Below, piece after piece: positions 10,729 to 55,031 of a stretch of 64,000 nucleotides of DNA (position 1 is the stretch's first letter; each line of letters opens with the position of its first letter). The position numbers were made by a program, and so were the translations under genes. The notes under the pieces were generated by a model. The model was not told the origin of the DNA. It saw only the letters and a program-made list of their open reading frames with translations, and ran no database searches. The stretch comes from Polyangiales bacterium (GTDB lineage Bacteria > Myxococcota_A > Polyangia > Polyangiales > Houyiibacteriaceae): assembly GCA_965227405.1 (NCBI GenBank), contig OZ245758.1, forward strand, positions 1,641,693 to 1,705,692, in the 5' to 3' direction.

Positions 10729-10869
10729 GTGTAAATTCTGGGGACAGGTTAATTAATTTACCGACCCTCGATCTCTAAGTACCCGAAAACACACGATCGC
10801 GATGGCTGACGCTCCAACGCGACGAAATGCCACATCCCCGAGGACGCGGTCCCCAGCTAACCCCGAAAG

Positions 10870-15248: not shown

Positions 15249-15249
15249 C

Positions 15250-15798: not shown

Positions 15799-15815
15799 CC
15801 ACGCACCCTAAGCAC

Positions 15816-16040
15816 TCATGGGGTCTTGGGAAGAATCCTACGTGCACGTTTCTCGAATCGCTCGTTGGGCATGGGCAGCAGGGGCACGCCGTTCCGCCGG
15901 TTCCTGCGCCGACGCGACGCGACCCGTGTACCGTCGTGCCCGTGCCCATGCCCATGCCCATGCCCGTGCCCAACGAGCGTCGGAAAGAGACGCGTGCGCA
16001 GGAACCATCCCATGACCACAGGGTCAAAACCGCGCGACAT
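15816..16040 (-). CDS. small His-Gly repeat protein (speculative)
   Basis: 74-aa ORF containing (HG)6 encoded by a hexanucleotide repeat; lies between two same-strand genes, 18 bp upstream of 15798. Confidence 0.25.
   Translation of the reverse strand: MSRGFDPVVMGWFLRTRLFPTLVGHGHGHGHGHGHDGTRVASRRRRNRRNGVPLLPMPNERFEKRARRILPKTP
15936..15972. repeat. hexanucleotide tandem repeat (CCCRTG)x6
   Basis: gtgcccgtgcccatgcccatgcccatgcccgtgccc read directly from the sequence. Confidence 0.9.
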
Positions 16041-16974: not shown

Positions 16975-17079
16975 GTGACGAGCGTGCCACGTGTTGCGAA
17001 ATCACCACAGCGTTGAACGACAAATACGCGCTGAACGTTAGGGATTCGAAGTGGCATCCCCTTCGCATTGGCGGTGGTT

Positions 17080-17769
17080 ATGCGTATCGCACTGACCATC
17101 ATCGTGCTCGCTGGATGCACGCCGCACGTGTTCTCACCACCGGGTCGTGTCATTCCACTCGAAGCGCCAGCGACCGTGGGCGAAGGCCGAACGGGAATTC
17201 AGATCGAGGGCGGAATGAGTTCGGAGAGCTTTGGCGAACCCATCGGGCACGGCACCGCACGCGTTCGACACGGCCTCACGGAACGACTCGAGATCAACGG
17301 CGAAGCAAGCGCGGTGGTGTTTACGCTTGGCGACGACGCCATGACCGATGCGCATCGCGGAATCTACTCCGCACGCTTTGGCGTCAAAGGCGCGTTCGGA
17401 CGTCACTTCGCGCTCACGAGTGGACTCGCAGGAGGATGGTCGGCAGGTGGTGGTTTTCTCTCGCCGGACATTGGGCTCGTCACGGGGTGGACGAACAACT
17501 TCGTCGTGCCCTTCATCTCGACGCGTGTGTTCTTCAGCCAACCACTGAATGCGACTGCGGTGACGATCACCGACAACGAGGAAACGATCACAGCGGAGCC
17601 TCAACCTTCGTATGGCGTGTCGTTGGCGACGGGAATTCGTGTGCCCTTCGGACCGCGCGGGGATGAACGTGGAGCGTTCACGACCGGGTTCGGGTTTACG
17701 GTCATCAGCGACGGAGACGAGACGAAGGAGTTTTCCGGGTTCAATCTAGGGGTGGAGCTGCGCCTCTGA
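17080..17769 (+). CDS. lipoprotein, hypothetical
   Basis: MRIALTIIVLAGCTPH lipobox; ORF-track start is 17068. Confidence 0.6.
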   Translation: MRIALTIIVLAGCTPHVFSPPGRVIPLEAPATVGEGRTGIQIEGGMSSESFGEPIGHGTARVRHGLTERLEINGEASAVVFTLGDDAMTDAHRGIYSARFGVKGAFGRHFALTSGLAGGWSAGGGFLSPDIGLVTGWTNNFVVPFISTRVFFSQPLNATAVTITDNEETITAEPQPSYGVSLATGIRVPFGPRGDERGAFTTGFGFTVISDGDETKEFSGFNLGVELRL

Positions 17770-17780
17770 GGTCGGAGAGG

Positions 17781-17925
17781 GATGTGCCGCGATATATTTT
17801 TTATCTTGGAAGATTGAGAGATGGAAAGCTGGGAAGAGGAAACCGATTATTTTCTCGGGCCATGCGTTGAGCTTCCGTACTCCCGAGCTTCCAAGCTTCC
17901 GGATCCGCGAAGCGGAATGCTGCCC
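17781..17925 (-). repeat. MITE-like intergenic repeat, copy A
   Basis: reverse complement is ~85% identical over ~140 bp to 28661..28803; carries the core gcttccggatccgcgaagcggaatgc. Confidence 0.8.
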
Positions 17926-17936
17926 ACACGGAGCCG

Positions 17937-19472
17937 CTAAAAACCATCATCGAAGATCGGCACATCGTCGACGACTTGGTCTGACATGCCCATACCCATG
18001 CCCATCCCGCGCATGTTCATTCGTGGACGCATGCCGCGCATGCTCATGCCCATCCGTGAAGCACGGTCGTCTTCTGCCTCGGCTTCGGCTTCGGCTTCGG
18101 CCTCGGCTGCGACGGCGGCTGCGGCCTCGGCTTCGGCGACGGCTTCGGCGACGGCGTCGGCTTCGGCCTCGGCTTCGGCTTCGGCTGCGGCTGCGGCTTC
18201 GGCTGCGGCTTCGGCGGAGGATTCGGCGGAGGATTCGGTTTCAGCTTCGGCCGCGCTCCCAGCCGATTCCACGGGTGGCGCCGCAACGGGCAGAACCGGC
18301 TCGCCACTTCCGCCGCGGACAAGCATCACCGTCAACGCAAACGATGCGATCGCTACCGCAATCCCAGCAACGATGATCCAACCCTTCCGCGACTGCTCTT
18401 GGCGCGGACGCACGCCGCTTCCATCGCGTGTCGGAGCTTCACTTGCCTCAACTCCAGCTGGAACCGGCGCCGCTCCATCCAGACAAGCCGCCAGCATCTC
18501 ACGACGCTCATCCAGCATCTTGCCAAGGCTGCCCTCCAAGAGTGTGGCGATACGCGTCGCATCCACCATCGCCACCTCAGGAACGGCCTGGCCCAACGCA
18601 CGTCGGAACTCCAACGCAGTCTGATAACGATCGTCCGGATTCTGGGCGAGCGCCTTCATCACGACAGCGTCGAGTGCCGGCGACACCCCCGATCCAAACG
18701 CGCTCGGAGGTTTGATATCGGGCGCTGCGATCTGTTGCATCACGGCGAGTTCGTCACGACCGTTGAACAGTCGTCGCAACGCAAGCATCTCCCACAACAC
18801 CACGCCCATCGCATAGACATCGCTACGTCGATCGACGGTATCCCCGCGTGCCTGCTCCGGCGCCATGTAGCGCAACTTGCCTTTGAGCGAACCCGACCCC
18901 GTTTCGGTTTGGTGATGCCGGCCCCGCGCTTTCGCAATTCCGAAGTCGATCACCTTCACGTTGCCGTCCGCAGCCAACAGGATGTTCTGCGGACTGATGT
19001 CGCGGTGAACCAAACCGAGGAAGTTGCCGTCGGCCCCCTTGATATCGTGCGCGGCGTGCAAACCACTGAGCGCCTGCATCGCGATCCAAGCCATCTGTGC
19101 TGGATCCAGCGGCTCTTCGCTCATCGCGCGTGACTTGAGAAGCTGCGAGAGCGAAGCGCCGAGCAAATACTCCATGGCGATAAAGAGCACGCCGTCGCGT
19201 TCGCCCAGTTCTTCGATGTGAATCACGTTGGGGTGTTGGATCTTCGCGGCGAGTTTGGCCTCGTCGATGAACATGTCGACGAACTCGGAACTTTCGGCGA
19301 GATGGGGATGGATCACTTTGATCCCCACGGGTCGCGCAAAGCCCGCAGCACCCTCACGTCGCGCGAGATACACGCTCGCCATACCGCCGCCCGTTAAACG
19401 CGCGAAAATCTGATACGGCCCAAAGACCGAGCCGACGCCGACGTGTGCTGAGGCGCTGGGCTGAACCGCCAC
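17937..19472 (-). CDS. Ser/Thr protein kinase with one TM helix and low-complexity (AE)n / Met-Gly-rich tail
   Basis: Hanks motifs GMASVYLA, VGIKV, HRDISPQNILL, DFGIA, APE; TM GWIIVAGIAVAIASFALTVMLV; C-terminal AEAEAE.. and MGMSMRGMRPRMNMRGMGMGMGM. Confidence 0.9.
   Translation of the reverse strand: MAVQPSASAHVGVGSVFGPYQIFARLTGGGMASVYLARREGAAGFARPVGIKVIHPHLAESSEFVDMFIDEAKLAAKIQHPNVIHIEELGERDGVLFIAMEYLLGASLSQLLKSRAMSEEPLDPAQMAWIAMQALSGLHAAHDIKGADGNFLGLVHRDISPQNILLAADGNVKVIDFGIAKARGRHHQTETGSGSLKGKLRYMAPEQARGDTVDRRSDVYAMGVVLWEMLALRRLFNGRDELAVMQQIAAPDIKPPSAFGSGVSPALDAVVMKALAQNPDDRYQTALEFRRALGQAVPEVAMVDATRIATLLEGSLGKMLDERREMLAACLDGAAPVPAGVEASEAPTRDGSGVRPRQEQSRKGWIIVAGIAVAIASFALTVMLVRGGSGEPVLPVAAPPVESAGSAAEAETESSAESSAEAAAEAAAAAEAEAEAEADAVAEAVAEAEAAAAVAAEAEAEAEAEAEDDRASRMGMSMRGMRPRMNMRGMGMGMGMSDQVVDDVPIFDDGF
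18075..18255. repeat. hexanucleotide tandem repeat (GCYTCG)n, ~28 units, coding (AE)n in the kinase gene
   Basis: cggcttcggcttcggcttcggcctcggctgcg.. read directly. Confidence 0.9.
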
Positions 19473-19492
19473 GTCGCGGAGTGTAACAGCCC

Positions 19493-20299
19493 TCAGTCAG
19501 GAACCGTCAGTCGGCCCGGCGGAACGTTGCCGTTGTACCGAGCGGTCGATCCTGCACGCGCACCGAGAACACCACCCAGCACAGCGCCGACCACAACAAC
19601 ACCGACGATGGTCCAAAGCACCGGCGAACGTCGTAGCGGACGAGGCTCATCGCCTACGACATCGGGTTGTTCGGACAGGACTTCTTGTTGCGCGAGTTCC
19701 GTCGGATCAGGAACCAGTGGAGTCCACTCGAGACCGGCCACATCGATGACGTGCTCGGCGCCTTCTTCCAACGTGAACTCAAGCTCGACTGCCCGGTAGT
19801 CCGCGCGTTCAACGCGTGCCGTGTGCGTGGAGGGATCCAATGGAAAGAGTTCCCCATACGCAGCCGCAGGAACATCCTCGTCGTCGATCGCAACCGTCAC
19901 GTTCCGAAACTCACCCGTCGCCACAATCCGCACGTTCGGAATTGCCGCTTCGAGTTCCTCAAGTGCGGCTTGTGCAACTCGGTTCTGCTGTCGAGCGCGG
20001 CGCCCTCGGGCATCGTTGGAAGAAAGAAAGCGTCGGTAGCTCTCTGCAGCCGCGACCCACATGCCCAGCTGTCGTTGGGTGCCTGCCAAGTTCAACAGTG
20101 TGGTCGAACGAGGCGAGAGTTCGTACGAACGCTCGAACGCATCGTGAGCTTCCTGCCAGTTGCGCTGTCGCGCTTCGCGAATCCCCTCACGAAAGAGGCG
20201 GCGCGCAACCGTGGTGCTACTCGCGCCTTGAGCCTCCACCAAATCCGCCCCCGACGAGAGCAGAACCACCATCGCGAGGAGGTTGGCAGCGACACGCAT
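19493..20299 (-). CDS. signal-peptide protein with TPR-like segment and C-terminal TM helix, hypothetical
   Basis: real gene is the 3' 268 codons of a longer antisense-extended ORF; N-terminus MRVAANLLAMVVLLSSGADLVEAQG; TM VLWTIVGVVVVGAVLGGVLGA. Confidence 0.6.
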   Translation of the reverse strand: MRVAANLLAMVVLLSSGADLVEAQGASSTTVARRLFREGIREARQRNWQEAHDAFERSYELSPRSTTLLNLAGTQRQLGMWVAAAESYRRFLSSNDARGRRARQQNRVAQAALEELEAAIPNVRIVATGEFRNVTVAIDDEDVPAAAYGELFPLDPSTHTARVERADYRAVELEFTLEEGAEHVIDVAGLEWTPLVPDPTELAQQEVLSEQPDVVGDEPRPLRRSPVLWTIVGVVVVGAVLGGVLGARAGSTARYNGNVPPGRLTVPD

Positions 20300-20351
20300 G
20301 CGCAAATCGTATCGAAAACCACGCGCCGCTTCTACTTGGTATCCTCCCCGC

Positions 20352-22073
20352 ATGCTTCGGCGTCTTGGCTTCGCGCTCGCGATCGTCGCACTCGGTGCGT
20401 GTGATGACGAAGCCACGCAGTTGATCGTGGTCGTCGACACAGACCTCGCGATCCCAAGCATGATCGACGGGGTTCGCTTCGACGTTTCGGGACGCGGCGC
20501 AACCGCCACGACAACGGCAGCGTTGACGTCGTCTACGCAACTGCCACTGACGTTGGCGCTTGAACCCGAAGGCGATCCCGGCTCAGTCGAAATCCGAGTC
20601 ACTGGCACAAGCGCTGGAAGCGACGTCGTCGAAGCGCGCGTAGACACCGAGTTTCTCACCGGCCAGCGGCGACTGGTCAACGTGTTCCTTTCCACGTCGT
20701 GCATCAGCGTGGACTGCACTGGATCAAACACCTGCGTGCAGGGCATGTGTCGCCCTTCGTTTGTGGCTCCTGAAGACCTTCCGCGCTTCGACGGAGAGCC
20801 GGGCCGACTCGACGGTGGAGTCGGTGTGGATGCGGATATTGGTGATGCGGACACCCCCGACGCGTTCGATGGTGGACGCGACGCAACTGTCGATGCTCCA
20901 CCCATCGATACCGGTGGTGTCGATGCAGGCTGCGGATGCGACGACGGCGTGACCTGCATCGACGGTGTCTGCGAGAACCGGCTCGCGGTCGACGTGTGGA
21001 TGGGCCAACGCTTTACGTGCATCGAACGCCGCGACGGCACGATCAGTTGCCTAGGCGACAACCGCAGTGGACAGCTCGGCGACGGAACAACCAACGACGC
21101 CCCGGTGTTGGCGCCGGTTGATGTGATCGGTTTTGGACCGGACGGTGATACCGCCACGGACGTTGCGCTCGGTTTCGACTCGGCGTGCGTGGTGACCAGC
21201 GGTCGCGAAGTGTTTTGTTGGGGCGCCAACGAAGCCGGGCAGCTCGGTGACGGAACCCTGGTGATGCGACCCGTTCCACAGCGCGTACCGGGGTTGAACT
21301 CGATCATCGACGTCAGCTCCGGCTCGAACCACACCTGCACCGTGGCTGTGTCCGGCGAGATCCAATGTTTTGGCGGCAATGCCGCGGGGCAACTTGGCGA
21401 CAACACCAACGACGGACGCAACACACCGGCGCCTGTCGTGGACGATCTCGAGGGTGTTCAAGTCAGCTGTGGCAGCGGCTTCACCTGCGCGATTCTCATG
21501 GACAACAACGTCGCGTGTTGGGGCGGTGGACTGAGCGGCGAGAACGGCAACTCGATGTTTATGAACACCGAGCGGCCGGACAACGTTGGAGGAATCAGCG
21601 GGATTCCCTTGGCCCTCACCACTGGAAGCGACAACTCGTGCGTCGCTTTCGCGGATGGCACCGTTCGATGTTGGGGCGCGGCTGACTTCGGTCGGCTCGG
21701 TGACGGAGGCGCTAGTGGTGGCGGCGATCAGTTCATGGCTGTCCCCGTGCCTGCGCTTGCAGGCGTCACGCAAGTCGCGAACGGACCCACTGCCTCCCAC
21801 GCATGTGTGAACGCTGGTGGAGATGTGTTGTGTTGGGGTGGAAACCGCTTTGGCCAGGTCGGCGACGCGAACGTCGGCATTCCGCGGCCGGTGCCCTTTG
21901 AAGTGTCCCTGCCGTCCGCTGCGATTGCGGTAGAGACTGGCGGCGTGTCGTCGTGCGCCGTGTTGGACACCGGACGCGTGTACTGTTGGGGCGAAAACGC
22001 GCGTGGTCAGTTGGGTGACGGAACGACCGACGACCGCGGCATCCCGACGGAAGCCACCGCATTTTTCCCGTAG
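20352..22073 (+). CDS. RCC1-repeat (beta-propeller) lipoprotein
   Basis: lipobox MLRRLGFALAIVALGACDDE; at least six RCC1-like repeats (..CWGANEAGQLGDGT.., ..CFGGNAAGQLGDNT.., ..CWGENARGQLGDGT..). Confidence 0.75.
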   Translation: MLRRLGFALAIVALGACDDEATQLIVVVDTDLAIPSMIDGVRFDVSGRGATATTTAALTSSTQLPLTLALEPEGDPGSVEIRVTGTSAGSDVVEARVDTEFLTGQRRLVNVFLSTSCISVDCTGSNTCVQGMCRPSFVAPEDLPRFDGEPGRLDGGVGVDADIGDADTPDAFDGGRDATVDAPPIDTGGVDAGCGCDDGVTCIDGVCENRLAVDVWMGQRFTCIERRDGTISCLGDNRSGQLGDGTTNDAPVLAPVDVIGFGPDGDTATDVALGFDSACVVTSGREVFCWGANEAGQLGDGTLVMRPVPQRVPGLNSIIDVSSGSNHTCTVAVSGEIQCFGGNAAGQLGDNTNDGRNTPAPVVDDLEGVQVSCGSGFTCAILMDNNVACWGGGLSGENGNSMFMNTERPDNVGGISGIPLALTTGSDNSCVAFADGTVRCWGAADFGRLGDGGASGGGDQFMAVPVPALAGVTQVANGPTASHACVNAGGDVLCWGGNRFGQVGDANVGIPRPVPFEVSLPSAAIAVETGGVSSCAVLDTGRVYCWGENARGQLGDGTTDDRGIPTEATAFFP

Positions 22074-22088
22074 GCGGTACGCTTCGGC

Positions 22089-23648
22089 ATGGCGAAGCGG
22101 CGTTTTGAGTTCAGCAGCGGTTCCTCGAACAAGTTTTGGGAAATCGACGTCAAAGGTTCGTCGCACACGGTGCGCTACGGGCGCATCGGAACGGACGGAC
22201 AAACCAAAACCAAAACACTCGCGTCGCCCGCCAAGGCTCGCGAAGCGGCGGACAAGCTCATCGCGAGCAAGATGAAGAAGGGCTACGTCGAGACCAAGGG
22301 CAAGGCCGCCAAGAAGCCTGCGAAGGCCGCCAAGAAGAAGCCCGCCAAGAAGAAGCCTGCGAAGAAGTCCGCGAAACGGTTCCCATCGACGAAGGCGTCG
22401 GCGAAACGAAAGCCCACCAAGAAGGCGACCAAGCGACCCGCGAAGAAAAAGCTCGCGAAGGGCAAACGCATCGACGCGCGATTGGTGCATGCCGTCGCAC
22501 CGAAGTATCCCGCCGGCTCGTTCGTCGGCGTGTGGGAAAGCGGAGCCGACTTGTGGGTCATCGGCGCAGACGACATCGGCAAAGAGGACGATGTCTCCAC
22601 CGCAGATGTGATCGACAGCGATGGCTTTGTTCAACGCTGGCGCTTCAAGTCGCCCAAAGAAGCCAAAGCCGCAGCGGCAGCGATCAAGAAGCAGAAGAAG
22701 CCCGCGAAAGGTCCCGCACCGGACTGGGTTAAAATCGACTCCGCGCTCAATCCGTTGATGCGCGCCAAGGATCTGCCCACGATTGCGCGTTACGACGTAG
22801 CGAAGAGCGGCCCGCTCACATTGACGCGGTCCACGCCCTTTGACTGGGTCCATCCGCGACCTGCATCACGTTGCTGGTGCGGGCGTGCCCTGATGCCGAC
22901 GTATCAACTCAGTGGCGCGGTCGATCCTCGTTTGGGCAAGAAGATCCGAATGCACATCTCGTTTTGCCCAGGCTCACTGCAGTCTCCGCACTGCGAAGGC
23001 ACGATCGAGGTGATCGTCGAGCACGAAGGTGCGAAATCCAGCGACGTCGTCGCCTACGAACTCATTGGCTACGGACGCAACAAGAGTTACGGGGTGCTGT
23101 CGCGAAGCGTGTTTTGGGATCCGATCGGGTCGGGTTTCCGGCATGCAGTGACGACGCACTATGGCGAGATGGGCACACCCGGGACAGTTCGTACCGAAAC
23201 GTTTCGGACGCGCAAAGAGGCCGACGAGTACTTCAAAAAGCGAAAGCCTCACCGCCCGGCAAAGCGAAGTCAGTTTGGGAAGTGGTACGCCGACGTACTC
23301 AAGGAGCGCGCCCACTTCCACCGCGTCCCAGGTTCGAAGCCACAAACGCTGCGCCTCAAGCCTCTGATGGCGCCGGCCAAAGTCAGCGGCAGCCCCTACG
23401 CACGCGTCGCGGACCTCTTCGACAATCGAGATGGAGTGGGTGGACAACCGAACTACACGCAGAGCGACTGGAGCGACACGTTTGACTGCGCCGCGTGTGG
23501 CAAGGTGATGCTCTTTGTGTTTCAGACGGGCTACGGCGCGCCGTGGTGGTGCGAACAACTCAACGACGGGGATGCAGGATCGTTTCAGTTCTTTGCGTGT
23601 CCGCACTGCAAGGGCCCACACGGTCGCGCGCTCTTTGAGTGCCACTAG
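22089..23648 (+). CDS. WGR-domain protein with histone-H1-like Lys/Ala/Pro linker and Cys-motif C-terminal domain
   Basis: WGR signature RRFEFSSGSSNKFWEIDVKGSSHTVRYGRIGTDGQTKTKTL..KKGY; linker AKKPAKAAKKKPAKKKPAKK; C-terminal CAACGK..FFACPHCKGPHG. Confidence 0.75.
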   Translation: MAKRRFEFSSGSSNKFWEIDVKGSSHTVRYGRIGTDGQTKTKTLASPAKAREAADKLIASKMKKGYVETKGKAAKKPAKAAKKKPAKKKPAKKSAKRFPSTKASAKRKPTKKATKRPAKKKLAKGKRIDARLVHAVAPKYPAGSFVGVWESGADLWVIGADDIGKEDDVSTADVIDSDGFVQRWRFKSPKEAKAAAAAIKKQKKPAKGPAPDWVKIDSALNPLMRAKDLPTIARYDVAKSGPLTLTRSTPFDWVHPRPASRCWCGRALMPTYQLSGAVDPRLGKKIRMHISFCPGSLQSPHCEGTIEVIVEHEGAKSSDVVAYELIGYGRNKSYGVLSRSVFWDPIGSGFRHAVTTHYGEMGTPGTVRTETFRTRKEADEYFKKRKPHRPAKRSQFGKWYADVLKERAHFHRVPGSKPQTLRLKPLMAPAKVSGSPYARVADLFDNRDGVGGQPNYTQSDWSDTFDCAACGKVMLFVFQTGYGAPWWCEQLNDGDAGSFQFFACPHCKGPHGRALFECH

Positions 23649-24594
23649 CGCGCGTCCACATCGCAACAAGCGCACCCACGATTCCGGGACGGACGGTGCT
23701 TCGATACGACGCAGACTCGGGAAGCTGCTCCATTAAACGCTGATGTACCAAGGGAAAGTGGTGGTAGGCCAACCGCGGAAACTGGTGGTGCAACGCGTGA
23801 TGCGCCGTGCCGACAGGGTTCACCAGCCAGGTCAGCCAACCTCCTTCGAGGGTGCTCGAGTCTGCGACTTGAGCATCGAAGCTCATTGGGTCGCCGTGGC
23901 TTTCGTACGCGTGCGACACGTTTGTGCGCAACTGATTGAGCGCAAGCGCAGTTCCCGTGACCGCCCACCACAGAAGCGCCCAATGCCAGTGCAGCCATCC
24001 TTGGATCAGAGCGACGCTCATCGTGGTCCACCACAGCCACGCAAGCACTTCGTACCGAACAAAACGCACGTCTACGCATTCGCGTCGAAACGACATGTTG
24101 GTCACAAGCGAACTCGCACGCGCGACCACAATCCGACGAATGGGAGGCACGACACTAAGCGGTGCCACCAAGACCCAACGAAGCGCAAGCAAGGGCGGCA
24201 ACACAAAGCTGACCAGGACCGAGGAGATGTGTTGCAGCCGGCCCCAGGTCGCGACCTGTTCGTATTCGGGATCGCCTAGCGTGCCGTAGACCCGGGTTCG
24301 ATGATGATCGGTGTGCGTGTCGACCATAGGGCTGATCAATCCCAATGGGACGCCGACGAGCAGGTTCCAGATCGGCTCAAACCCAGGCAGCTCACCTGCG
24401 CGCCGATGGTTGATCTCGTGGACGAAGTACGCCGCCCGCCACAGCGCAAAGACGCTGATCATCGCCGCTAGAGGCCAGGACAGCGCCAACACAAACGCAC
24501 CCCAGCCCACCAGCGCACTGGCGCCAAAATCCGCCCAATAGATGCTTCGATTGGGCTTCAGGGTCCGTACCCACGCACGAAACTCGCGATTCAT
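23560..24594 (-). CDS. membrane fatty-acid desaturase
   Basis: three His boxes HEINHR, HTDHHRT and HHALHHQF; start set at MNREFRAW (24594), the ORF-track start is 24834; 3' end overlaps the WGR gene by 89 bp. Confidence 0.75.
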   Translation of the reverse strand: MNREFRAWVRTLKPNRSIYWADFGASALVGWGAFVLALSWPLAAMISVFALWRAAYFVHEINHRRAGELPGFEPIWNLLVGVPLGLISPMVDTHTDHHRTRVYGTLGDPEYEQVATWGRLQHISSVLVSFVLPPLLALRWVLVAPLSVVPPIRRIVVARASSLVTNMSFRRECVDVRFVRYEVLAWLWWTTMSVALIQGWLHWHWALLWWAVTGTALALNQLRTNVSHAYESHGDPMSFDAQVADSSTLEGGWLTWLVNPVGTAHHALHHQFPRLAYHHFPLVHQRLMEQLPESASYRSTVRPGIVGALVAMWTRASGTQRARDRVGPCSADTQRTETILHPRR

Positions 24595-24675
24595 GCGGCT
24601 AGCGTCGCGAATCACTGAGTTTCTGGCATTGGTCGACTGCGCCGTTTCATTGACCGAACGCGCTATCGTGGGTGG

Positions 24676-25607
24676 GTGATAGCGCGGAGCGTCACCGAAC
24701 ACGTCATCGCCGTGGCCAAGGCTCATGGGGCCGGTGGCATGATCCAGCCCACCGGCGACCAGGTGGATGATGCCACCCACCTCAAGATCTGGGAGCAAGC
24801 CATTGCTCAAACCTCCCGCGACTTGCCGGTCCACTACGCGCGTGCGTGTGATGTGGATGGCTATGGCTTGCTCGGTCTAGCGTGCAAGACAGCACCTGAT
24901 CTGCGAACGGCCATCGAGCGCATGCTCACCTTCGTGCACATCGTGGCCTCGAGTGTGCAGGCTCGGTTGGATGGCCACACGCTGGTCGTCCAACGCGACG
25001 GCAACCCCGGACTGGGTCGAATGGCAGCCATCGAGTCCACGCTGGGCGAGATCTGGGTGACCATCGGCCAGATGACCGTCGAACCGGTTGCTCTGACGCG
25101 CGTTGAACTCGCCCACCCACCCTACGTGCAGCTGAACTCGCTCTTCGGATGTCCGGTCGAGCAGACCGATCGCAATGCTCTGGTGTTTGCTGACGATGCA
25201 CTCCGCACGCCCTGAAGCAGGCTGATTCTGCGATTTCTGCCTATTTTCTCGAGCAATTGCGTCCCTTGGCGAAACCTGAGACGTGGACCGAGCGAGTCGC
25301 ACAACAGCTCGAAACCGCATTTGCGCAGTCTGGAGGAGCATCCAGACCTGGGGTCGAGGATGTCGCTCGAGCGTTGGCCGTTTCACCGCGCACGTTGCAG
25401 CGTCATCTCCAAGAAGAGTCCTCTTCGTTTCGCACCGTCCTCGAACACACGCGTCTCACCATCGCCAAACGACTTCTGATCACACACGCCATCGGCGAGG
25501 TCGCATTCGCGCTCGGGTTCTCCGAAAGCAGCGCCTTTCATCGTTGGTTTCGAAAGTCGACAGGGATGACGCCGGGTGCGTTTCGCGATTCCTCCACGCT
25601 GGGATGA
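24676..25607 (+). pseudogene. AraC-family transcriptional regulator split by a frameshift (ligand-binding domain 24676..25215, HTH domain 25257..25607)
   Basis: the upstream ORF is an AraC-type N-domain; the downstream ORF has the AraC HTH (..GFSESSAFHRWFRKSTGMTPGAF); the reading frame changes by 1 nt between about 25194 and 25213. Confidence 0.5.
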
Positions 25608-25636
25608 TTTGTTCGAGCACAGCGCGTTGACTCTTC

Positions 25637-26206
25637 GTGCCGCGCGTTTGGAGTCATAACCACCACTACTACTCGCGAGTCCTGCTCGCCTGCCCTTCAC
25701 GATGCCGAGTCGCACTGGATGTTGGATGCGGCGAAGGTGACCTCAGTATCGAGCTGCTTCGAGTGGCGGACCACGTCATCGGACTCGACTCGGACCCGGT
25801 GGTGATCGAACGCGCACGCGAACGCTCGCGTGATGCAGAATGGCGGTGCGAGAGCTTCCTCGAGTCCGAACTACCGCGTGCCGACTTCATTACGTTCGTC
25901 GCATCTCTCCATCACATGGACATGCGCCCGACGCTCGATCGGGCACTCTCGCTCTTACAGCCTGGGGGAGTGCTCTGCGTCATCGGCATGGCGCGTTCGA
26001 CCGAACCGCGAGACTGGCTTGCCGATGTGGGGGGCTTTGTGGCGTCCCGAACACTGAAACTGTTTCGCCCAACCGCACGTTCGCAGATGCGCTTGAAGCA
26101 CCCACAGGTTTCGTACCGCGACGTTCGAACCCTCGCGCATTCGCTACCCGGCGCGCACTACGAACGGTTGTGGCTCTTTCGCTACCTCTTGGAGGTGAAC
26201 ACCTAA
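25637..26206 (+). CDS. class I SAM-dependent methyltransferase
   Basis: motif I VALDVGCGEGDL, motif II-like LLQPGGVL. Confidence 0.7.
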   Translation: MPRVWSHNHHYYSRVLLACPSRCRVALDVGCGEGDLSIELLRVADHVIGLDSDPVVIERARERSRDAEWRCESFLESELPRADFITFVASLHHMDMRPTLDRALSLLQPGGVLCVIGMARSTEPRDWLADVGGFVASRTLKLFRPTARSQMRLKHPQVSYRDVRTLAHSLPGAHYERLWLFRYLLEVNT

Positions 26207-27552
26207 CAGCACCAACGCGTCACGATGTCTGCCAACACGTCGGTTCCCCACGCGTAGCCGTCGAGAGGGATTCGTTCGTCGTGCGCATGGAAGAGATCGG
26301 CATAGCGCAACCCTTTCGGCAACTTGAGTGGGGCAAAGCCGATCCACTTCACGCCGATTCGATCGAAGCCCTTCGCATCGGTGAATCCCGGAAGCATGTA
26401 CGGAACCACCGGACAGCCCGGCGCGTGATCCTTCATCACGCTCTCAATGGTCTGGTAGAGCGGCCCCTTCCAAGGACGCGTCTCGACGGCATCCATGGCA
26501 TGTGTGACTTCGATCTCGACGTCGTCACCCATGATCTCTTTCACTTCGCGAAGGAACGACTGTTGGGTTTGTCCCGGCAACACGCGTCCATCGATCTCGA
26601 TCGATGCTGAACCTGGGATCACGTTCACGCTTTGTCCGGAACGAAACACCGTCGGACTCGCGGTGTTCGCCAGCATCGCCAACATGCCCATGCGAACCGT
26701 GGGATCTGGGACACGACGCACGATCTCCCGCAGCGCACCGGGCTGCTTGGCAAGCTGCCCCGTTGTCGCACGAAACCCCGGTACTTGCGGGGCAATCGCA
26801 TCGACCAGGTGTTCCAAAAACGCTTCGACGATCGGAGTGCGATGCGGCGGAAGCGACGTGGGTGTGAGTCGCGCAACCTTCTCCGCGAGACGCAACACAG
26901 CCGAGTCTGCGCGTGGCATCGACCCGTGTCCTGGAGGTCCGTGGATGGTGGCCTTCATCCAGCACACGCCCTTCTCGGCAACCTGCACGGGATAGAAACA
27001 CTTGCCACCGAGATGCAGCGAGAACCCACCGCCCTCGCCCAGCGCGTACTCGGCACGAACCAAGTCTGGATGGTTGTCGCAGAGCCACAGTGAACCTGCA
27101 CGACAACCCTGCTCCTCGTCCGCCACTGCGGCAAAGATCAGATCGCGTTTGAGTTGGACCCCTTCTTTGGCCAATCGACAGATCACCGCGAGCGACATCG
27201 CCACGTGGTTTTTCATGTCGACCGCGCCTCGCCCGTAGAGACAACCGTCGTCGCCCACGACACCCGCGAAGGGCGGATGCGTCCAATGTTCGGGTTCGAC
27301 AGGAACGACGTCGAGATGACCCGTCAGCAACAAGGGCGGTTTCTCGCCGGTTCCCTTAATCCGTGCGACGACGTTTGTGCGCTTGTCGCTTGAGGTGAGA
27401 ATCGTCGGCTCAAGACCTGCTTCGCGAAGTGCGCCGACCACGTAGGCTGCAGCTTCGGTTTCGTCTCCGGGCGGGTTAATGCTCGGGATTTTCAGCAGGC
27501 CTTCGAGAAGAACCCGGGAATGTTCGCGGAGGGCGCCGTCAGCGACGTTCAT
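26203..27552 (-). CDS. M20 family metallopeptidase (ArgE/DapE/CPG2-like)
   Basis: metal-binding GHLDVVP..., DMKN, EEQG motifs; dimerisation domain; 4-bp overlap with the methyltransferase stop. Confidence 0.85.
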   Translation of the reverse strand: MNVADGALREHSRVLLEGLLKIPSINPPGDETEAAAYVVGALREAGLEPTILTSSDKRTNVVARIKGTGEKPPLLLTGHLDVVPVEPEHWTHPPFAGVVGDDGCLYGRGAVDMKNHVAMSLAVICRLAKEGVQLKRDLIFAAVADEEQGCRAGSLWLCDNHPDLVRAEYALGEGGGFSLHLGGKCFYPVQVAEKGVCWMKATIHGPPGHGSMPRADSAVLRLAEKVARLTPTSLPPHRTPIVEAFLEHLVDAIAPQVPGFRATTGQLAKQPGALREIVRRVPDPTVRMGMLAMLANTASPTVFRSGQSVNVIPGSASIEIDGRVLPGQTQQSFLREVKEIMGDDVEIEVTHAMDAVETRPWKGPLYQTIESVMKDHAPGCPVVPYMLPGFTDAKGFDRIGVKWIGFAPLKLPKGLRYADLFHAHDERIPLDGYAWGTDVLADIVTRWCC

Positions 27553-27641
27553 GGCGCGAGCATACCGAGGATTTCAAGAAGAGAACCTTTGGGCTGGGCG
27601 TACGTCTATCATAGGTACCGGCGAAGTAGGGTTGAAGACGA

Positions 27642-28613
27642 ATGCGAGCTGAGGCACCGGAAGGAGGACGCGACAACGAGCTTCGACTCGTCTTGTGGGC
27701 GGCCTTGGTTCTCTCGCTCGGAGGTCACTTGGTGATCTACTTCAGCCTCAACCCGTGGTGGCCAGGTCCTGTCGGTTCACCGAGTGAACCGAATTGGATG
27801 ACCATGGTTGAAGGACCTGGCGACGGGATGGGTGAGGAAGTCACGCCCGAAGAATCGGGTGAAGCTGGAAGCGATCTGCTTGAGAGTGAGCCGATCGCAC
27901 CGCAGGAGCGCGTGCCTGAAGACATTCGCGTGCAGCGCGAAACCGAACCGGAGCCGGTCGAAGAGCAGATCACGGTGGTGGACGAAGCCGAAGAACCGGA
28001 CGTCGCGGTTGAGGACCCGATCGAGCGTATCGAGAACACGCAAGCACCCAGCAACGAAGTTCGCGACATTCCGAGCCCAGAAGAGACCGCCAACCGACTC
28101 TTTGTCGACGCACTCATCAATCGAGGCAACAACGGCCAAGGGAACGTTGGCGCGGGCACAGGTTCCGGTGGTGGCGGTGAAGCCGGTGGTGGCGGTGAGT
28201 GTGGGGATCCGATCCTGGGAACCTGGCGCGCGCGTCGGTACGACCGACTACATCAACGGCACGCCACGTTCACCATTCGAATCACACACCGCGAGGGTGA
28301 TCGTCTCGAAGGCACGATCATCAACCGCGCATGGAGTGGCGGACCGCTACAAACGTCTCCGCCGCGCTGCACACCTGGAGTCTTTGATCATACGGTTCGC
28401 ATGCCCGCGCATGGTCGTTTCAATGGGCGCGAGTTTCGGATGGATGCAGAGTCGCATCGTCGAACGGTGCACTGCATCGACACGGGGATCTGGATGTACA
28501 ACCTGGATCACTTTACCGGGCGAATGCAGGGCGATGTGCTGGTGACCGTGAACAACGATGGTGGGGTGGAAGTGAACTCGCCGTATCGTTTTCGGCGGGT
28601 CAGTTGTCTCTAA
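27642..28613 (+). CDS. membrane-anchored protein with acidic Pro/Glu-rich linker, hypothetical
   Basis: TM LRLVLWAALVLSLGGHLVIYF; acidic linker; Gly-rich stretch; no catalytic motif. Confidence 0.5.
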   Translation: MRAEAPEGGRDNELRLVLWAALVLSLGGHLVIYFSLNPWWPGPVGSPSEPNWMTMVEGPGDGMGEEVTPEESGEAGSDLLESEPIAPQERVPEDIRVQRETEPEPVEEQITVVDEAEEPDVAVEDPIERIENTQAPSNEVRDIPSPEETANRLFVDALINRGNNGQGNVGAGTGSGGGGEAGGGGECGDPILGTWRARRYDRLHQRHATFTIRITHREGDRLEGTIINRAWSGGPLQTSPPRCTPGVFDHTVRMPAHGRFNGREFRMDAESHRRTVHCIDTGIWMYNLDHFTGRMQGDVLVTVNNDGGVEVNSPYRFRRVSCL

Positions 28614-28660
28614 CTTGGCACGCTCCGCTCGCAGAAACTTAGGCAGGGAAACCCGGGTTT

Positions 28661-28803
28661 GATGTGCATTCCGCTTCGCGGATCCGGAAGGATGGAAGCT
28701 CGGGAGTACGGAAGCTCAACGCATGGGCCGAGAAAAGAGTCTGTTTCTCTTCCCGGCTTACCCTCTTTCGATCTTCCCGGATAAAAATGAATCGCGGCAC
28801 ATC
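28661..28803 (+). repeat. MITE-like intergenic repeat, copy B
   Basis: bounded by the terminal inverted repeat GATGTGC..GCACATC; ~85% identical to the reverse complement of 17781..17925. Confidence 0.8.
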
Positions 28804-28824
28804 CAAGTCGCGAAGCGGACCTGG

Positions 28825-29700
28825 TCACTCGGAAGCAGAGTTTAGCGCCCAGTCGTACTCAAAATGCGTAATCCGCGTTCGGTCGCGCCGCACAAACTCC
28901 GCGTCTTCGCCCTCAAGCTGCGACGCAATGAACTCACGTACATCGCCAAAGTCATCCGCAAACCACTCGAACAACTTCGTGGCCGAGATTCGATTGCGCC
29001 GACGATCCAACTGCGTTGTACCGCGCACAAACGCTTGCGTTGCTGAGGCCAACAGGGCTTCGAGGTTTTCGGGAGTAAACGCCTCACGCTGAAGCGGAGG
29101 ACAACCCACCGATGCACAGTTCACGGCAAAGTGAATTCGCGGCTCACCAAAGCGCTCCTTGTCGCGGATAATCTCGTTCTCCAACGCGTTGAGCGTCATA
29201 TCCGCGCCTGCAACGCGATGGGTTCGCGCGTCGAAGAACCCGTCTTCCTGCATCACGCTTTCGACGGGCCACAACTCCAACACGGAGTTCACGGTCAGCA
29301 CGTTGTAGGCGTTGATGTAAAACGCCAACGCACGGTCGCGCTCCATCCCGGAGGTATCGATCGATCCAACTCGTTCGACGATCATCGCCAAGCGAGCGAC
29401 GTGTTCTTCGTTGGCGCGAAGCGCTTCGTAGCGAAAGCCTGCGTCGTTGACGTATGCCGCGAGCAGGTTCGTCCAATCGGCGGTGGGAAACGAGTCGACT
29501 GCAGGTGCTTCGCGGGTCCCGGGAACTTCGGTGTTCCGCGCTTGCGGCTCTTCCTGTTCGGGTTCGGCCTCAGCAACCGGCTCGGGTTCGGGAGCAGGTG
29601 TTTGCGGCGGAGGTGACTCAGTGTTGTCAGCACCACATGCGAGCGCAAAGACCAGAGGAAGCCAAAGTTTTCCAGAAGCCATGCAGGACGTACGAACCAT
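28825..29700 (-). CDS. DUF547-domain lipoprotein
   Basis: lipobox LVFALACGAD; DUF547-like core AFYINAYNVLTV..HFAVNCASVGCPPL. Confidence 0.7.
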   Translation of the reverse strand: MVRTSCMASGKLWLPLVFALACGADNTESPPPQTPAPEPEPVAEAEPEQEEPQARNTEVPGTREAPAVDSFPTADWTNLLAAYVNDAGFRYEALRANEEHVARLAMIVERVGSIDTSGMERDRALAFYINAYNVLTVNSVLELWPVESVMQEDGFFDARTHRVAGADMTLNALENEIIRDKERFGEPRIHFAVNCASVGCPPLQREAFTPENLEALLASATQAFVRGTTQLDRRRNRISATKLFEWFADDFGDVREFIASQLEGEDAEFVRRDRTRITHFEYDWALNSASE

Positions 29701-30179
29701 AGCGGCGGACGTTAGCAGCTTCGCGAACGGGCGCGTCGGGAGCCGGGAAACCCTTTAACTTTTTCGAAGACTCCAAGACCTGCAAAGACGCCAAGTCGTG
29801 GGTTGGGCGAGTATTTTTTCCCGGAAGAGGGGAAGGCGGGAAGACGGGAAGAGTTTTTTTTTTTTCTCTTGCCGGTCAGCGTCGTTCCTTTTGAGCGCTC
29901 GTTCGCTCCTAGCTCCGGGGCGTTTTGCGCTGCTCACCGCTTCGGATGTCTCGCTCGTGCTTCCTTCCTCCGAGCAACACGCATGAAATCAAAACGCAAA
30001 CCCATCGCCGGCCTCATGCAGCGTGTCCTCGCTCTTCGTGCGTTTTGACCTCGTCGCCGCAACGCGAAGTTGGGATACATGCGCGACGTGTGAGAAGTGA
30101 AAAACGCCTCGAAGATGGGTGCGCACGAGATCCGGTGGAACATCCGCAGGTGTCGGGAAAAAATCAGTCCTTCCCATCT

Positions 30180-30345
30180 TCCGGCTAAAAATACTGGCGC
30201 TACTCGACGACCGTCTTCGCAGGGTCTTGAAGTCTTGACTGGTTTGGTCGCTTGACCGACTTCGAGAAAATGATCGGTATCCCAGTCTTCCTGCTTCCGA
30301 GCTTTCGAACTTCCGAGCTTCCGGATCCGCGAAGCGGAATGCAGA
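30180..30345 (-). repeat. diverged copy of the intergenic repeat family, copy C
   Basis: contains gagcttccggatccgcgaagcggaatgc plus ttttctcgaag and ggtcttgaagtcttg motifs shared with the other copies. Confidence 0.6.
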
Positions 30346-30362
30346 CCAAGCCTTCCAGAACG

Positions 30363-30394
30363 AAAAAAGGGACACCCCGAAGGGCGTCCCTTTT
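30363..30394 (-). terminator. intrinsic terminator of the cysteine-protease gene
   Basis: minus-strand RNA GGGACGCCC-UUCG-GGGUGUCCC (9-bp stem, one G-U pair, UUCG loop) followed by UUUUUU, 20 nt after the stop codon. Confidence 0.7.
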
Positions 30395-30414
30395 CCAGTC
30401 TTCGCAGACCTGGA

Positions 30415-32301: not shown

Positions 32302-32458
32302 GCGCAGGAGTAAAGCACGCCGCATGCCACAAAGGTAGGAAGCCACTGGTTGGAAAGATCGAGGAAAACGGACCCGTTGGTTGGGGATCCTCACGCGATC
32401 GGTGGCGACCCCAGTTGCCAGAGGAGCCCTTCGAGTCGCCAGCAAGTAGGGTCCGGCG

Positions 32459-40219: not shown

Positions 40220-40274
40220 CTATTGTCAGAACTGATAATAACTCTGCTCAAGTTATTGTCAAGTCTGACAATAG
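40220..40274. promoter_or_regulatory. 55-bp imperfect palindrome, candidate TetR operator in the divergent promoter region
   Basis: perfect 11-bp inverted repeat CTATTGTCAGA (40220-40230) / TCTGACAATAG (40264-40274) with nested GATAATAAC / GTTATTGTC. Confidence 0.6.
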
Positions 40275-40914: not shown

Positions 40915-41090
40915 CGAGGCGCTTCGCGGATCCGCAGGGAAGAATCGTCACAATTTGTTAGTGGGAGACGCGAGGCTAGGAGACCGGAGAGATAGATTTT
41001 CTCTGCGGACTCCGAGCCTCGCGTCTCCCACTAAATTAAGATCCCTCCCTCTGCGCCTCATAAAGATCTCCCTCTGCGTGTCCCTCAAAC
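40915..41090. repeat. intergenic repeat with a 20-bp perfect inverted repeat (hairpin element)
   Basis: TTAGTGGGAGACGCGAGGCT (from about 40961) pairs with AGCCTCGCGTCTCCCACTAA about 38 bp away; flanked by the partial core cgcttcgcggatccg. Confidence 0.7.
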
Positions 41091-45959: not shown

Positions 45960-46190
45960 GGGTTGTGGCTCCGGTCTATTCACTAATTTAGTGGAAGATT
46001 CGAAGACGAAAGACGAAAGAGCGCGAGCTCGAGCGCGAGGGTGACCGATAAATTTTTCGGGTATCGTCGCTCCGAGGCACCCACAAAAAGACAGCTCCCC
46101 TTGAGTCTTGCGCCTTCGATCTTCCACTAAGAATATCGACCAAAAGGCGCGCCACCAAAGTGACGCGCCCCAAGTTCGAGACAAGCTCGC
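45960..46190. repeat. intergenic repeat element with TTAGTGGAAG terminal inverted repeats
   Basis: CTAATTTAGTGGAAGAT (~45978) pairs with ATCTTCCACTAAG (~46121); shares ttcgaagacgaaagacgaaagagcg-type motifs with 54535..54610 and 29760..29790. Confidence 0.6.
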
Positions 46191-46964: not shown

Positions 46965-47055
46965 GATGTTTCCTTTCTGAAGCAAGACAGACAACGGCCT
47001 GCCAACGCCGGAGTCGGCGCGGTGGTGCAGGCAGAAATGAGGGAGCTAGCGAGCG

Positions 47056-54494: not shown

Positions 54495-54645
54495 GACACC
54501 TCCAAGGCGGTGTCAACGAAAGCGAGGGAGGCCCAGGGGTCTATTCCATTTAATTTTTTCGAAGATTTGAAGAGCGAAGACTCAAGATTTTTCTCGGTTT
54601 CTACCGCCAGCGCGTCGGCGAATACACTCTCCGCAGGAGGTCTCC

Positions 54646-54894
54646 ATGAAGGGTTTTGCTCTCGGATTGTCACTGTCGATCGCGTTTGTTTTAGGGTGCG
54701 TTTCAAGTCCGCTCGTCACACGCGATGCCCGCGCTCAAGAGGACGGCGGGGAAGTCGTGCCAGCACACGTCCCACGTTGGCAGCACTTCTACTACCTCGA
54801 CCAACCGCCGCGGTACGACCTGGACCGTTTGAACGACCTGGGCGGACGCGGCTGGCAGATGGTCGGACCGCGTGATGAGTACGATCGAGTCTGA
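54646..54894 (+). CDS. small lipoprotein, hypothetical
   Basis: MKGFALGLSLSIAFVLGCVSSP lipobox; 82 aa. Confidence 0.45.
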   Translation: MKGFALGLSLSIAFVLGCVSSPLVTRDARAQEDGGEVVPAHVPRWQHFYYLDQPPRYDLDRLNDLGGRGWQMVGPRDEYDRV

Positions 54895-55000
54895 AGCGTC
54901 AACTGTGATCAGATCTGCGAAGCCACAGCACCCTAGAAAAGGAAATCGGTCTCCTCTTTGCACTCTTGGAATCTTCTGATCTTCCAAAAAATAAAATAGG

Positions 55001-55031
55001 TATCCCCGTATCCCCGTATGCCCGTATCCCG
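55001..55031. repeat. octanucleotide tandem repeat (TATCCCCG)x4
   Basis: tatccccgtatccccgtatgcccgtatcccg in a convergent intergenic region next to an A/T-rich run. Confidence 0.85.

What the first reader, a model, noticed from the sequence alone, without database searches (positions are those of the whole stretch)
17781..30345. Dispersed MITE-like intergenic repeat family with core gcttccggatccgcgaagcggaatgc
Two copies, 17781..17925 (minus orientation) and 28661..28803 (plus orientation), are about 85% identical over ~140 bp. The better-preserved copy is bounded by the terminal inverted repeat GATGTGC..GCACATC. More diverged relatives carry the same 26-bp core plus ttttctcgaag and ggtcttgaagtctt(c/g) motifs at 30180..30345 and 29740..29830, with a partial core at 40915..40935. 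Every copy is intergenic, mostly between convergent gene ends. No ORF runs through them, so they look like non-autonomous mobile elements (MITE or REP-like) or a small-RNA family that ordinary annotation would not name.
Basis: seen in the sequence. Interest (0 to 1): 0.8.

Follow-up and report, generated by a model that had tools for sequence, protein, structure and literature searches.

The report
Palindromic intergenic repeats marking gene inversions
The repeat is real: it belongs to a young, strain-variable family of non-coding hairpin-forming DNA repeats in an uncultured myxobacterium, an ordinary kind of selfish repeat, notable mainly because copies sit at the edges of genes that have been flipped.

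Summary
Copies A (17780-17925, minus) and B (28661-28804, plus) are 88% identical over 141 nt. Copy C (30263-30352) carries the exact 26-nt core on a half element. The 40920-40940 "partial core" is not significant alone.

The three copies belong to a wider superfamily of imperfect palindromes. Their arms combine an A/T-rich cap, GGAAGAT, 8-nt-phased GRAAG units and a loop motif ACCGATnATTTTCTCGGG. The window holds 9-11 such arms, including two ~0.5-kb palindromes and two TA-flanked hairpins. About 130 kb of genus-level relatives holds none.

No Rfam, plasmid, phage, GTDB-representative or JGI metagenome match exists. A ~98% identical strain has a different TA-flanked palindrome at B's site. 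The orthologous A copy is no better conserved than its flanks.

B and C, mutually inverted, bracket a DUF547 gene that is inverted relative to three relatives. A abuts a kinase gene inverted relative to one relative.

Best reading: a lineage-specific MITE/BIME-like mosaic repeat family that promotes local inversions. Canonical TIR and TSD are not shown for the core-bearing type, and no transposase was found. This is a new member of a known kind, of moderate-to-low interest.

The parts
17780..17925 (-). Copy A, full length. Read on the minus strand it runs: 26-nt core (17895-17920), four 8-nt GGAAG units, loop motif, CTTCC arm, A-rich tail ending GGCACATCC. It lies between the stops of a lipoprotein gene (17080-17769 +) and a Ser/Thr kinase gene (17937-19472 -).
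   Evidence: nhmmer E 3e-54. An orthologous copy is present in the 94% strain L036.
28661..28804 (+). Copy B, full length, core at 28666-28691. It lies between the stops of a hypothetical gene (27642-28613 +) and the DUF547 gene (28825-29700 -). It is absent from strains L003, L004 and L041, which carry another palindrome here.
30263..30352 (-). Copy C, a half element: core (30317-30342), five GGAAG units, and the loop motif in the opposite orientation to A and B. It is inverted relative to B and, with it, brackets the DUF547 gene.
   Evidence: (I2: 60 nt, 82% complementary).
29751..30245 (.). G1, an imperfect palindrome of about 495 nt. Arms are about 29751-29852 and about 30161-30245. The centre of about 300 nt is non-coding and starts with a T13 run. 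The left arm holds the phased array 29823-29851.
   Evidence: Self-complementarity over 29767-30236. Arm alignment score 39 against a shuffle mean of 8.6. Arm HMM hits. The centre appears flipped in strain L041.
54546..55004 (.). G2, inverted arms (54546-54612 and 54931-55004) that flank a real 82-aa lipoprotein-like gene (54646-54894 +, AGGAGG ribosome-binding site). The right arm is homologous to the tail half of copy A.
   Evidence: (arm scores 21 and 30 against shuffle means of about 8.8). The ORF has 18 full-length relatives.
40959..41033 (.). T2-a, a near-perfect 75-nt hairpin with ends TA|GTGGGAGAC...GTCTCCCAC|TA, between convergent genes. A core-like 15-mer lies just upstream at 40920-40940.
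   Evidence: (I3, 35-nt arms, 91% complementary), (DNA fold z -13).
45989..46129 (.). T2-b, a 141-nt palindrome with ends TA|GTGGAAGAT...ATCTTCCAC|TA. It has GAAAGAC units and the same central loop motif (46045-46060).
   Evidence: (z -4.1).
28825..29700 (-). DUF547 lipoprotein gene, inverted relative to three genus-level relatives and bracketed by B and C.
17937..19472 (-). Ser/Thr kinase gene, inverted relative to relative L026/L027. Copy A lies at its 3' junction. The 20-nt ancestral upstream spacer travelled with the gene.
30362..30396 (.). Canonical bidirectional intrinsic terminator of the peptidase gene, conserved in relatives. It marks the ancestral sequence just outside copy C.

Best explanation
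The finding is a species-level, recently expanded family of modular palindromic intergenic DNA repeats. It is non-autonomous selfish repeat DNA of the MITE/BIME/BOX kind.

Each arm is built from an A/T-rich cap, GGAAGAT, a variable number of 8-nt-phased GRAAG units and a shared loop motif.

Shown:
- The copies are multi-copy, non-coding and hairpin-forming.
- They are absent from genus-level relatives.
- They turn over between strains 94-98% identical.
- They lie at the boundaries of single-gene inversions.

Inferred:
- They spread in trans by a transposase encoded elsewhere. The simplest members are flanked by TA...TA, like elements mobilised by IS630/Tc1-type enzymes.
- They spread further by ectopic recombination.
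- Once present in inverted pairs, or as long palindromes, they promote inversion of whatever lies between the arms: a loop, a 300-nt spacer, or a whole gene.
- Any effect on neighbouring genes (3'-end hairpins, insulation of new convergent junctions) is secondary.
For: Family is real.

Superfamily architecture: the arm HMM finds 9-11 arms in the 64-kb window and in strains L003, L036 and L041. It finds none in about 130 kb of genus-level relatives. Phased GRRAR arrays number 5 in the window, against 0 in shuffles and 0 in relatives. Arm-to-arm alignments score 7-18 sd above shuffles.

TA-flanked ends: TAGTGGRA occurs only at the four ends of two palindromes in the window, and at both ends of the L003 element. 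That element sits in the central TA of a perfect 24-nt-arm palindrome.

Turnover: across 10.5 kb aligned at about 98%, B's site is the only unalignable block. Two further strains carry the other element there.

No constraint: orthologous A copies are about 91% identical against 94% for flanking DNA. Arm sequence upstream of DUF547 is 77% identical between strains that are otherwise about 98% identical.

No coding or known RNA.

Rearrangements: DUF547 is inverted relative to three relatives and is bracketed by inverted B and C. The kinase gene is inverted relative to L026/L027, with A at one junction. The loop motif is flipped in C relative to A and B. The G1 centre is flipped in L041.

Assembly breaks: short-read contigs of related strains end at or inside the elements (L035, L036, L003, L041), as expected for multi-copy repeats.

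Precedent: Correia elements are recombination and inversion hot spots in Neisseria (PMC3454330).
Against: - No transposition event is directly shown for the core-bearing type. There is no clean filled-versus-empty site, no TSD, and a 7-bp TIR in one copy only.
- No matching transposase is in the window. The only mobile-DNA genes are an IS3-family element with unrelated ends.
- Genome-wide copy number is unknown, because the source genome could not be searched.
- The kinase inversion has an element at only one junction.
- The polarity of the kinase inversion rests on one relative lineage.
- The 5' half of A and B is 95% identical while the 3' half is about 80%. Differences avoid paired positions (2 of 14). 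Some constraint, or gene conversion, is therefore possible.
- The G1 flip rests on one Logan contig. That contig could be a chimeric path through the tandem 8-mers.
Confidence: 0.6

Rival explanations
1. A structured RNA element. The copies would be transcribed as 3'-UTR hairpins that stabilise or terminate the upstream mRNA, or processed into a small RNA. The single-stranded GGAAG array could titrate an RNA-binding protein of the CsrA type, or ribosomes.
For: Each copy follows a gene end in sense orientation: A follows the kinase, B follows the hypothetical gene, and C follows the peptidase terminator. The hairpin is retained in both full copies, and A/B differences avoid paired positions. 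The 5' half with the GGAAG units is the best conserved part.
Against: - No Rfam similarity.
- Fold z-scores are only -0.7 to -2.6, and the centroid structures are weak.
- 0 compensatory pairs.
- No U-tract follows the hairpin on either strand, whereas this lineage uses canonical terminators.
- No promoter-like site in 17-31 kb.
- Orthologous copies evolve at or above the neutral rate.
- Absent at the same gene ends in relatives.
- The GGA motifs are mostly paired in A and B.
Confidence: 0.15
2. A site-specific inversion system (inverton or shufflon-like). The 26-nt core, or the arms, would be sites for a dedicated recombinase that flips the enclosed segment. This would switch expression of surface lipoprotein genes such as DUF547 and the 82-aa gene.
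For: - The core is exactly conserved (25-26 of 26) in otherwise diverged copies and is dense in palindromes.
- B and C are inverted and bracket an inverted gene.
- Arms bracket a second small lipoprotein gene.
- The centre of G1 appears flipped between strains, with the switch point in a short identical stretch.
- The loop is flipped in C.
Against: - No serine or tyrosine recombinase among about 40 ORFs scanned.
- The DUF547 orientation is the same in all strains seen: the window, L003/L004 and L041.
- B is missing altogether in those strains, so the B-C pair is not a conserved switch.
- G1 and G2 arms lack the core.
- The kinase inversion has no second site.
- The one observed flip may be an assembly path artefact.
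Confidence: 0.1
3. Arrays of binding sites on double-stranded DNA. The 8-bp-phased GGAAG/CTTCC units, in direct and inverted sets, would be coated by a small dimeric DNA-binding protein, as ribbon-helix-helix centromere or operator proteins coat 7-8-bp iterons. The role would be regulatory or nucleoid-organising.
For: Strict 8-nt phasing of 3-5 units, 5 arrays against 0 by chance. The unit number varies between strains and arms. Own knowledge, not tested here: ParG and omega-type proteins bind short motifs repeated every 7-8 bp.
Against: - No candidate binding-protein gene adjoins any copy.
- Unit sequences drift (GGAAG, GAGAG, GAAAG, GGGAG).
- The arrays always occur as palindrome arms, which is simply what slippage in a hairpin element would give.
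- No conservation in relatives.
Confidence: 0.05

Closest known systems
Correia repeat-enclosed elements (Neisseria) and ERIC/RU-type enterobacterial palindromic MITEs
   Same: These are 75-160-nt imperfect palindromes in intergenic DNA. They are TA-flanked, as are the T2 members here and the L003 element. They are polymorphic between strains, can be co-transcribed as hairpins, and are documented hot spots for inversions (PMC3454330; review PMC2229807 listed).
   Different: There is no sequence similarity. The core-bearing copies A, B and C lack a clear TIR and TSD. The arms are made of 8-nt tandem units. One end carries a GC-rich 26-nt cap. No IHF site or promoter was identified.
BIMEs (mosaics of REP units, E. 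coli) and BOX elements (Streptococcus pneumoniae)
   Same: The architecture is modular and mosaic, with a variable number of internal units and with half elements. They sit at 3' gene ends, form hairpins, and are involved in rearrangements (own knowledge).
   Different: REP units are 20-40-nt GC-rich palindromes with a GTAG or CGTC tag, mobilised by RAYT transposases (PMC3733652 and PMC2817692, listed). Neither the tag nor a RAYT gene is seen here. Module sequences are unrelated.
Invertons (invertible promoters or genes flanked by inverted repeats)
   Same: Inverted repeats flank segments that differ in orientation between relatives or strains. Two of the flanked genes encode lipoproteins.
   Different: No invertase is nearby. 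The repeats are long, diverged and dispersed. The orientation of the gene-sized segment is fixed among the strains seen.

Membership tests
MITE (miniature inverted-repeat transposable element) | Multi-copy, small (under about 600 bp), non-coding | tested here: met
   Two full copies and at least three partial copies of the core type. There are 9-11 arms of the superfamily in 64 kb. No protein matches to translations of the copies.
MITE (miniature inverted-repeat transposable element) | Terminal inverted repeats shared by the copies | tested here: inconclusive
   Core type: a 7-bp TIR in copy B only. T2 members and the L003 element share clear ends, TAGTGGRAGA...TCTYCCACTA.
MITE (miniature inverted-repeat transposable element) | Target-site duplication and filled-versus-empty sites | tested here: inconclusive
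   T2-a, T2-b and the L003 element are flanked by TA...TA. The L003 element sits in the centre of a perfect palindrome. No empty site was recovered. No TSD is visible for A, B or C. B's site holds a different element in other strains rather than being empty.
MITE (miniature inverted-repeat transposable element) | A cognate autonomous IS with the same ends | tested here: not met
   Within the window, the only transposase genes belong to an IS3-family element whose inverted repeats are unrelated. The rest of the genome could not be searched.
REP / BIME with RAYT | 20-40-nt GC-rich palindrome with a GTAG or CGTC tag, and a RAYT (Y1 transposase) gene flanked by copies | tested here: not met
   The only REP-sized palindrome is the 13-nt TCCGC-GAA-GCGGA inside the core. 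It has no tag, and its DNA fold is only -4.5 to -4.8 kcal/mol with z -0.6. No Y1_Tnp hit among the scanned ORFs.
Any curated RNA family (Rfam 15) | A covariance-model match at or near the gathering score | tested here: not met
   No hit in the window at gathering thresholds. Only irrelevant sub-threshold hits in E-value mode.
Intrinsic (Rho-independent) terminator | GC-rich hairpin followed by a U-tract on the transcribed strand | tested here: not met
   The scan reports no terminator at A, B or C. The T-rich tract lies 5' of the hairpin and the A-rich tract 3'. A canonical terminator lies next to C at 30362-30396.
Inverton / site-specific invertible segment | Both orientations present, and an invertase gene | tested here: inconclusive
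   One possible flip, the G1 centre in L041 relative to the window. The DUF547 orientation is identical in all strains. No recombinase in the window. Read-level data are not available.

The most novel reading that the evidence does not exclude
That mechanism would be a recombinase encoded elsewhere, or hairpin/cruciform-driven template switching. It would flip whatever lies between paired arms: loops, 300-nt spacers, and whole lipoprotein genes. This would give an uncultured Sandaracinaceae-like myxobacterium a dispersed, gene-scale phase-variation or shuffling system built from a repeat family.
Probability: 0.1. Interest if true: 0.7.

Novelty: new member of a known kind. Interest (0 to 1): 0.35.

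Why it matters
Small palindromic repeats are rarely catalogued outside model bacteria. I found no report of MITEs in myxobacteria: the one paper holding both terms concerns Acidobacteria.

This family is dense here, at about one arm per 6-7 kb, yet it is confined to a species-level lineage. It explains why short-read contigs of that lineage break at these intergenic sites.

It also coincides with two precise single-gene inversions and a strain-specific element swap within 12 kb. That gives a compact natural example of how hairpin repeats remodel gene order and operon structure.

If the flips prove to be frequent, the family would become a candidate gene-scale switching system.

Tried and rejected
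1. Exact-core scans of GTDB representative genomes, JGI metagenomes and IMG/VR. All 23 hits were chance matches inside coding DNA of unrelated GC-rich organisms.

2. A concatenated six-frame translation of A and B searched against 5.8 billion proteins, hoping that spurious ORF calls at contig ends would reveal more copies. There were no hits.

3. Rfam at gathering and at E-value thresholds, and plasmid and phage BLAST. Nothing relevant.

4. Exact-protein look-ups for DUF547, the kinase and the aminotransferase failed, because starts or sequences differ from the gene calls on record.

5. Sigma-70 and sigma-54 scans of 29650-30420 gave no sigma-70 site and one weak sigma-54-like match at 30010 on the minus strand. 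This is not enough to call an invertible promoter.

6. Central regions of G1 and G2 compared in both orientations showed no similarity above shuffles.

7. In relative L026, the kinase-TPR spacer is a hairpin, GCACATC-N7-GATGTGC. I judged this coincidental, because these 7-mers occur 19 times in the window.

8. Rejected: a retron (no reverse transcriptase), CRISPR (no array), and a tRNA or tmRNA relation.

Full report
**Observation.** The 26-nt core occurs three times in the window with at most one mismatch, at 17895-17920 (+), 28666-28691 (-) and 30317-30342 (+). None is expected by chance. Copies A (17780-17920) and B (28666-28804), in opposite orientation, align at 87.9% over 141 nt with E 8e-39. 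The best ungapped stretch is 82 nt at 93%. Copy C shares only the core-proximal 56-60 nt, at 82-86%. A profile built from A and B also finds the following:
- 30263-30317, read on the other strand.
- 29813-29854 (E 4e-3).
- The "partial core" at 40920-40940, which is not significant alone (E 0.5).

The TIR GATGTGC..GCACATC is present only in B and lies largely outside the A/B homology. Those 7-mers are common in the window.

**Organism and gene context.** Homologues of the neighbouring DUF547 protein are named Sandaracinaceae, Polyangiales or Myxococcota MAG proteins. GC content is about 60%. A lies between the stops of a lipoprotein gene (17080-17769 +) and a Ser/Thr kinase gene (17937-19472 -). 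B lies between the stops of a hypothetical gene (27642-28613 +) and the DUF547 gene (28825-29700 -). C lies downstream of a C1-type peptidase gene (30415-32502 -), just inside its conserved bidirectional terminator (30362-30396), and about 600 nt upstream of DUF547.

**Anatomy.** Read from the core, a full copy has these parts in order:
- The core, which contains the 13-nt palindrome TCCGC-TTC-GCGGA (GCGAAGC on the other strand).
- Four tandem 8-nt units of the form NCGGAAGC.
- A loop region with CCGAGAAAAtAATCGG.
- A CTTCC-rich arm that pairs with the GGAAG units.
- An A-rich tail ending ATCGCGGCACATCC.

These features are seen. The 5' half is 95% identical between A and B and the 3' half about 80%. 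Of 14 differences in the 3' half, 2 fall in predicted pairs and both are wobble-compatible. No pair shows a compensatory change, and the structure was derived from the same two sequences. RNA fold z-scores are modest, -0.7 to -2.6.

**A wider superfamily.** Arrays of three or more GRRAR units in 8-nt phase occur five times in the window, all in these elements. They occur 0 times in shuffles and 0 times in genus-level relatives. The region 29751-30245 (G1) is a ~495-nt imperfect palindrome. A second large palindrome (G2, 54546-55004) has arms homologous to G1's ends and to the tail half of A, with alignment scores 7-14 sd above shuffles. G2's arms flank an 82-aa lipoprotein-like ORF with an AGGAGG ribosome-binding site. 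That ORF has 18 full-length relatives among 1.8 billion representatives.

Two simpler hairpins, 40959-41033 and 45989-46129, end in TA|GTGGRAGA...TCTYCCAC|TA. TAGTGGRA occurs nowhere else in the window. Their DNA fold z-scores are -13 and -4. The 46-kb element shares the loop motif. An HMM of eight aligned arms finds 9-11 arms in the window and in its close strains. It finds none in about 130 kb (with redundancy) of genus-level relatives.

**Not a known RNA, protein or mobile replicon piece.** Rfam gave nothing. There are no tRNA genes. Plasmid, phage and viral searches gave nothing. Translations of the copies gave no protein matches. Core scans of GTDB representatives and JGI metagenomes returned only chance matches in coding DNA.

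**Strain comparisons.**
- Logan contigs L003 and L004 are 97.9-98.6% identical to window 18156-28629 and colinear with it. Window 28630-28826, which is B with its immediate flanks, is not alignable.
- At that site they carry a different element of about 215 nt with TA|GTTGGAAAT...ATTTCCCAC|TA ends. It sits in the centre of a perfect palindrome, GTCGCTTCGCTGCTGCGAACTTTT / AAAAGTTCGCAGCAGCGAAGCGAC, followed by three 14-nt tandem units.
- A third strain (L041, about 94%) has the same element there.
- Copy A is present at its site in another 94% strain (L036). It is about 91% identical over the 58 nt available, no better than the flanks.
- Contigs L035, L036, L003 and L041 all end at or inside these elements, as expected for repeats.

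**Inversions.** In three genus-level relatives (L026/L027, L028-L033, L034) the order is hypothetical(+), about 20 nt, DUF547(+), optionally a WD40 gene, terminator, peptidase(-). In the window and its strains, DUF547 alone is on the opposite strand. B and C are mutually inverted with their cores at the outer ends, and they bracket this inverted gene (I2).

In L026/L027 the order is lipoprotein(+), about 20 nt, kinase(+), then TPR(-) convergent. In the window the kinase alone is inverted, with A at the lipoprotein|kinase junction. The ancestral 20-nt upstream spacer was carried along to the TPR side. The L028 lineage lacks this gene block, so the polarity of the kinase inversion rests on one lineage.

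Two smaller flips fit the same theme. The loop motif is in the opposite orientation in C compared with A and B. In L041 the DUF547-proximal G1 arm is joined to the opposite end of the G1 centre. L041 aligns better to an in-silico flipped window (score 161 against 132). The caveat is that a de Bruijn contig could cross between arms through the tandem 8-mers.

**Genes in the window.** About 40 ORFs were scanned against Pfam, in addition to the precomputed calls. The only mobile-DNA genes are an IS3-family element (53264-54535) that abuts G2. There is no serine or tyrosine recombinase, no Y1/RAYT transposase and no IS630-like transposase.

**Interpretation.** The evidence fits a young, lineage-specific family of non-autonomous palindromic repeats of the MITE/BIME/BOX kind. 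The features that fit are:
- Multi-copy, non-coding and modular.
- Absent in relatives.
- Swapped between strains.
- Evolving at least as fast as neutral DNA.
- Located at rearrangement junctions, as Correia elements are in Neisseria (PMC3454330).

Mobility in trans is inferred, not shown. The TA...TA flanks of the simplest members suggest a TA-targeting transposase. The core-bearing copies fail the strict MITE tests for TIR, TSD and a cognate IS. The roles of the 26-nt core and of the 8-nt phasing are unexplained.

I give 0.6 to this reading. I give 0.15 to a structured-RNA role, 0.1 to a dedicated inversion system and 0.05 to a dsDNA protein-binding array. The kind is known, and the family is new and undescribed. 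Interest is moderate to low unless the flips prove frequent.

Noticed in passing
window 53264-54535: A complete IS3-family insertion sequence. It has orfA 54159-54494 (HTH_Tnp_1), orfB 53290-54162 (rve), and 27-nt terminal inverted repeats at 53264-53290 and 54509-54535. It sits 10 nt from the left arm of the G2 palindrome.
   Followed up: partly
window 54646-54894: An 82-aa lipoprotein-like ORF with a lipobox (VLGC) and an AGGAGG ribosome-binding site, enclosed by the G2 inverted arms. It belongs to a small conserved family of 83-92-aa proteins with no Pfam match.
   Followed up: partly
window 55005-55036: Four tandem 8-nt units, GTATCCCC, lie immediately outside the right arm of G2. This is another 8-nt-period microsatellite next to an arm. 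The purpose is unknown.
   Followed up: no
window 10731-10768 and 63564-63601: Two copies of a motif, GTRAATTCTGGGGAC...TTACC.GACC (71% over 38 nt). Each lies a few bases after a gene stop, one after the zf-PARP gene and one after the sigma-54 activator gene. It may be another small intergenic repeat or a regulatory site.
   Followed up: no
window 40220-40274: A 24-nt-arm palindrome, CTATTGTCAGAACTGATAATAACT / AGTTATTGTCAAGTCTGACAATAG, lies in the 78-nt AT-rich spacer between the divergent Coq4 and TetR genes. It looks like a TetR operator.
   Followed up: no
window 15249-17067 and 23560-26206: Two gene blocks are absent at these positions in relatives. The first holds two minus-strand ORFs between the MFS and lipoprotein genes. 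The second holds a fatty-acid desaturase, an AraC regulator and a methyltransferase between the WGR and M20 genes. This lineage has many local rearrangements besides the two inversions.
   Followed up: partly
window 18042-18269 and 15943-15976: Low-complexity coding repeats. The first is a 12-nt period (Ala/Glu-rich) tract in the C-terminal part of the kinase, followed by a Met-Gly repeat. A similar GCCCAT hexamer run lies near 15.95 kb. The L003 contig ends in the kinase tract.
   Followed up: no
window 46255-46797: Three tandem copies of a unit of about 150-200 nt (63-72% identical) inside the ORF 46197-46994, which has no Pfam match. This ORF lies next to the T2-b palindrome.
   Followed up: no
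window 29854-29866: A T13 homopolymer lies exactly at the boundary between the left arm and the centre of G1. The number of GGGAAGAC units next to it differs between strains: four units in the window's left arm and five in L041.
   Followed up: partly
L026 3445-3465 (and L027 267-287): In the relative, the 21-nt spacer between the convergent kinase and TPR genes is a hairpin, GCACATC-N7-GATGTGC. This is probably coincidence.
   Followed up: partly
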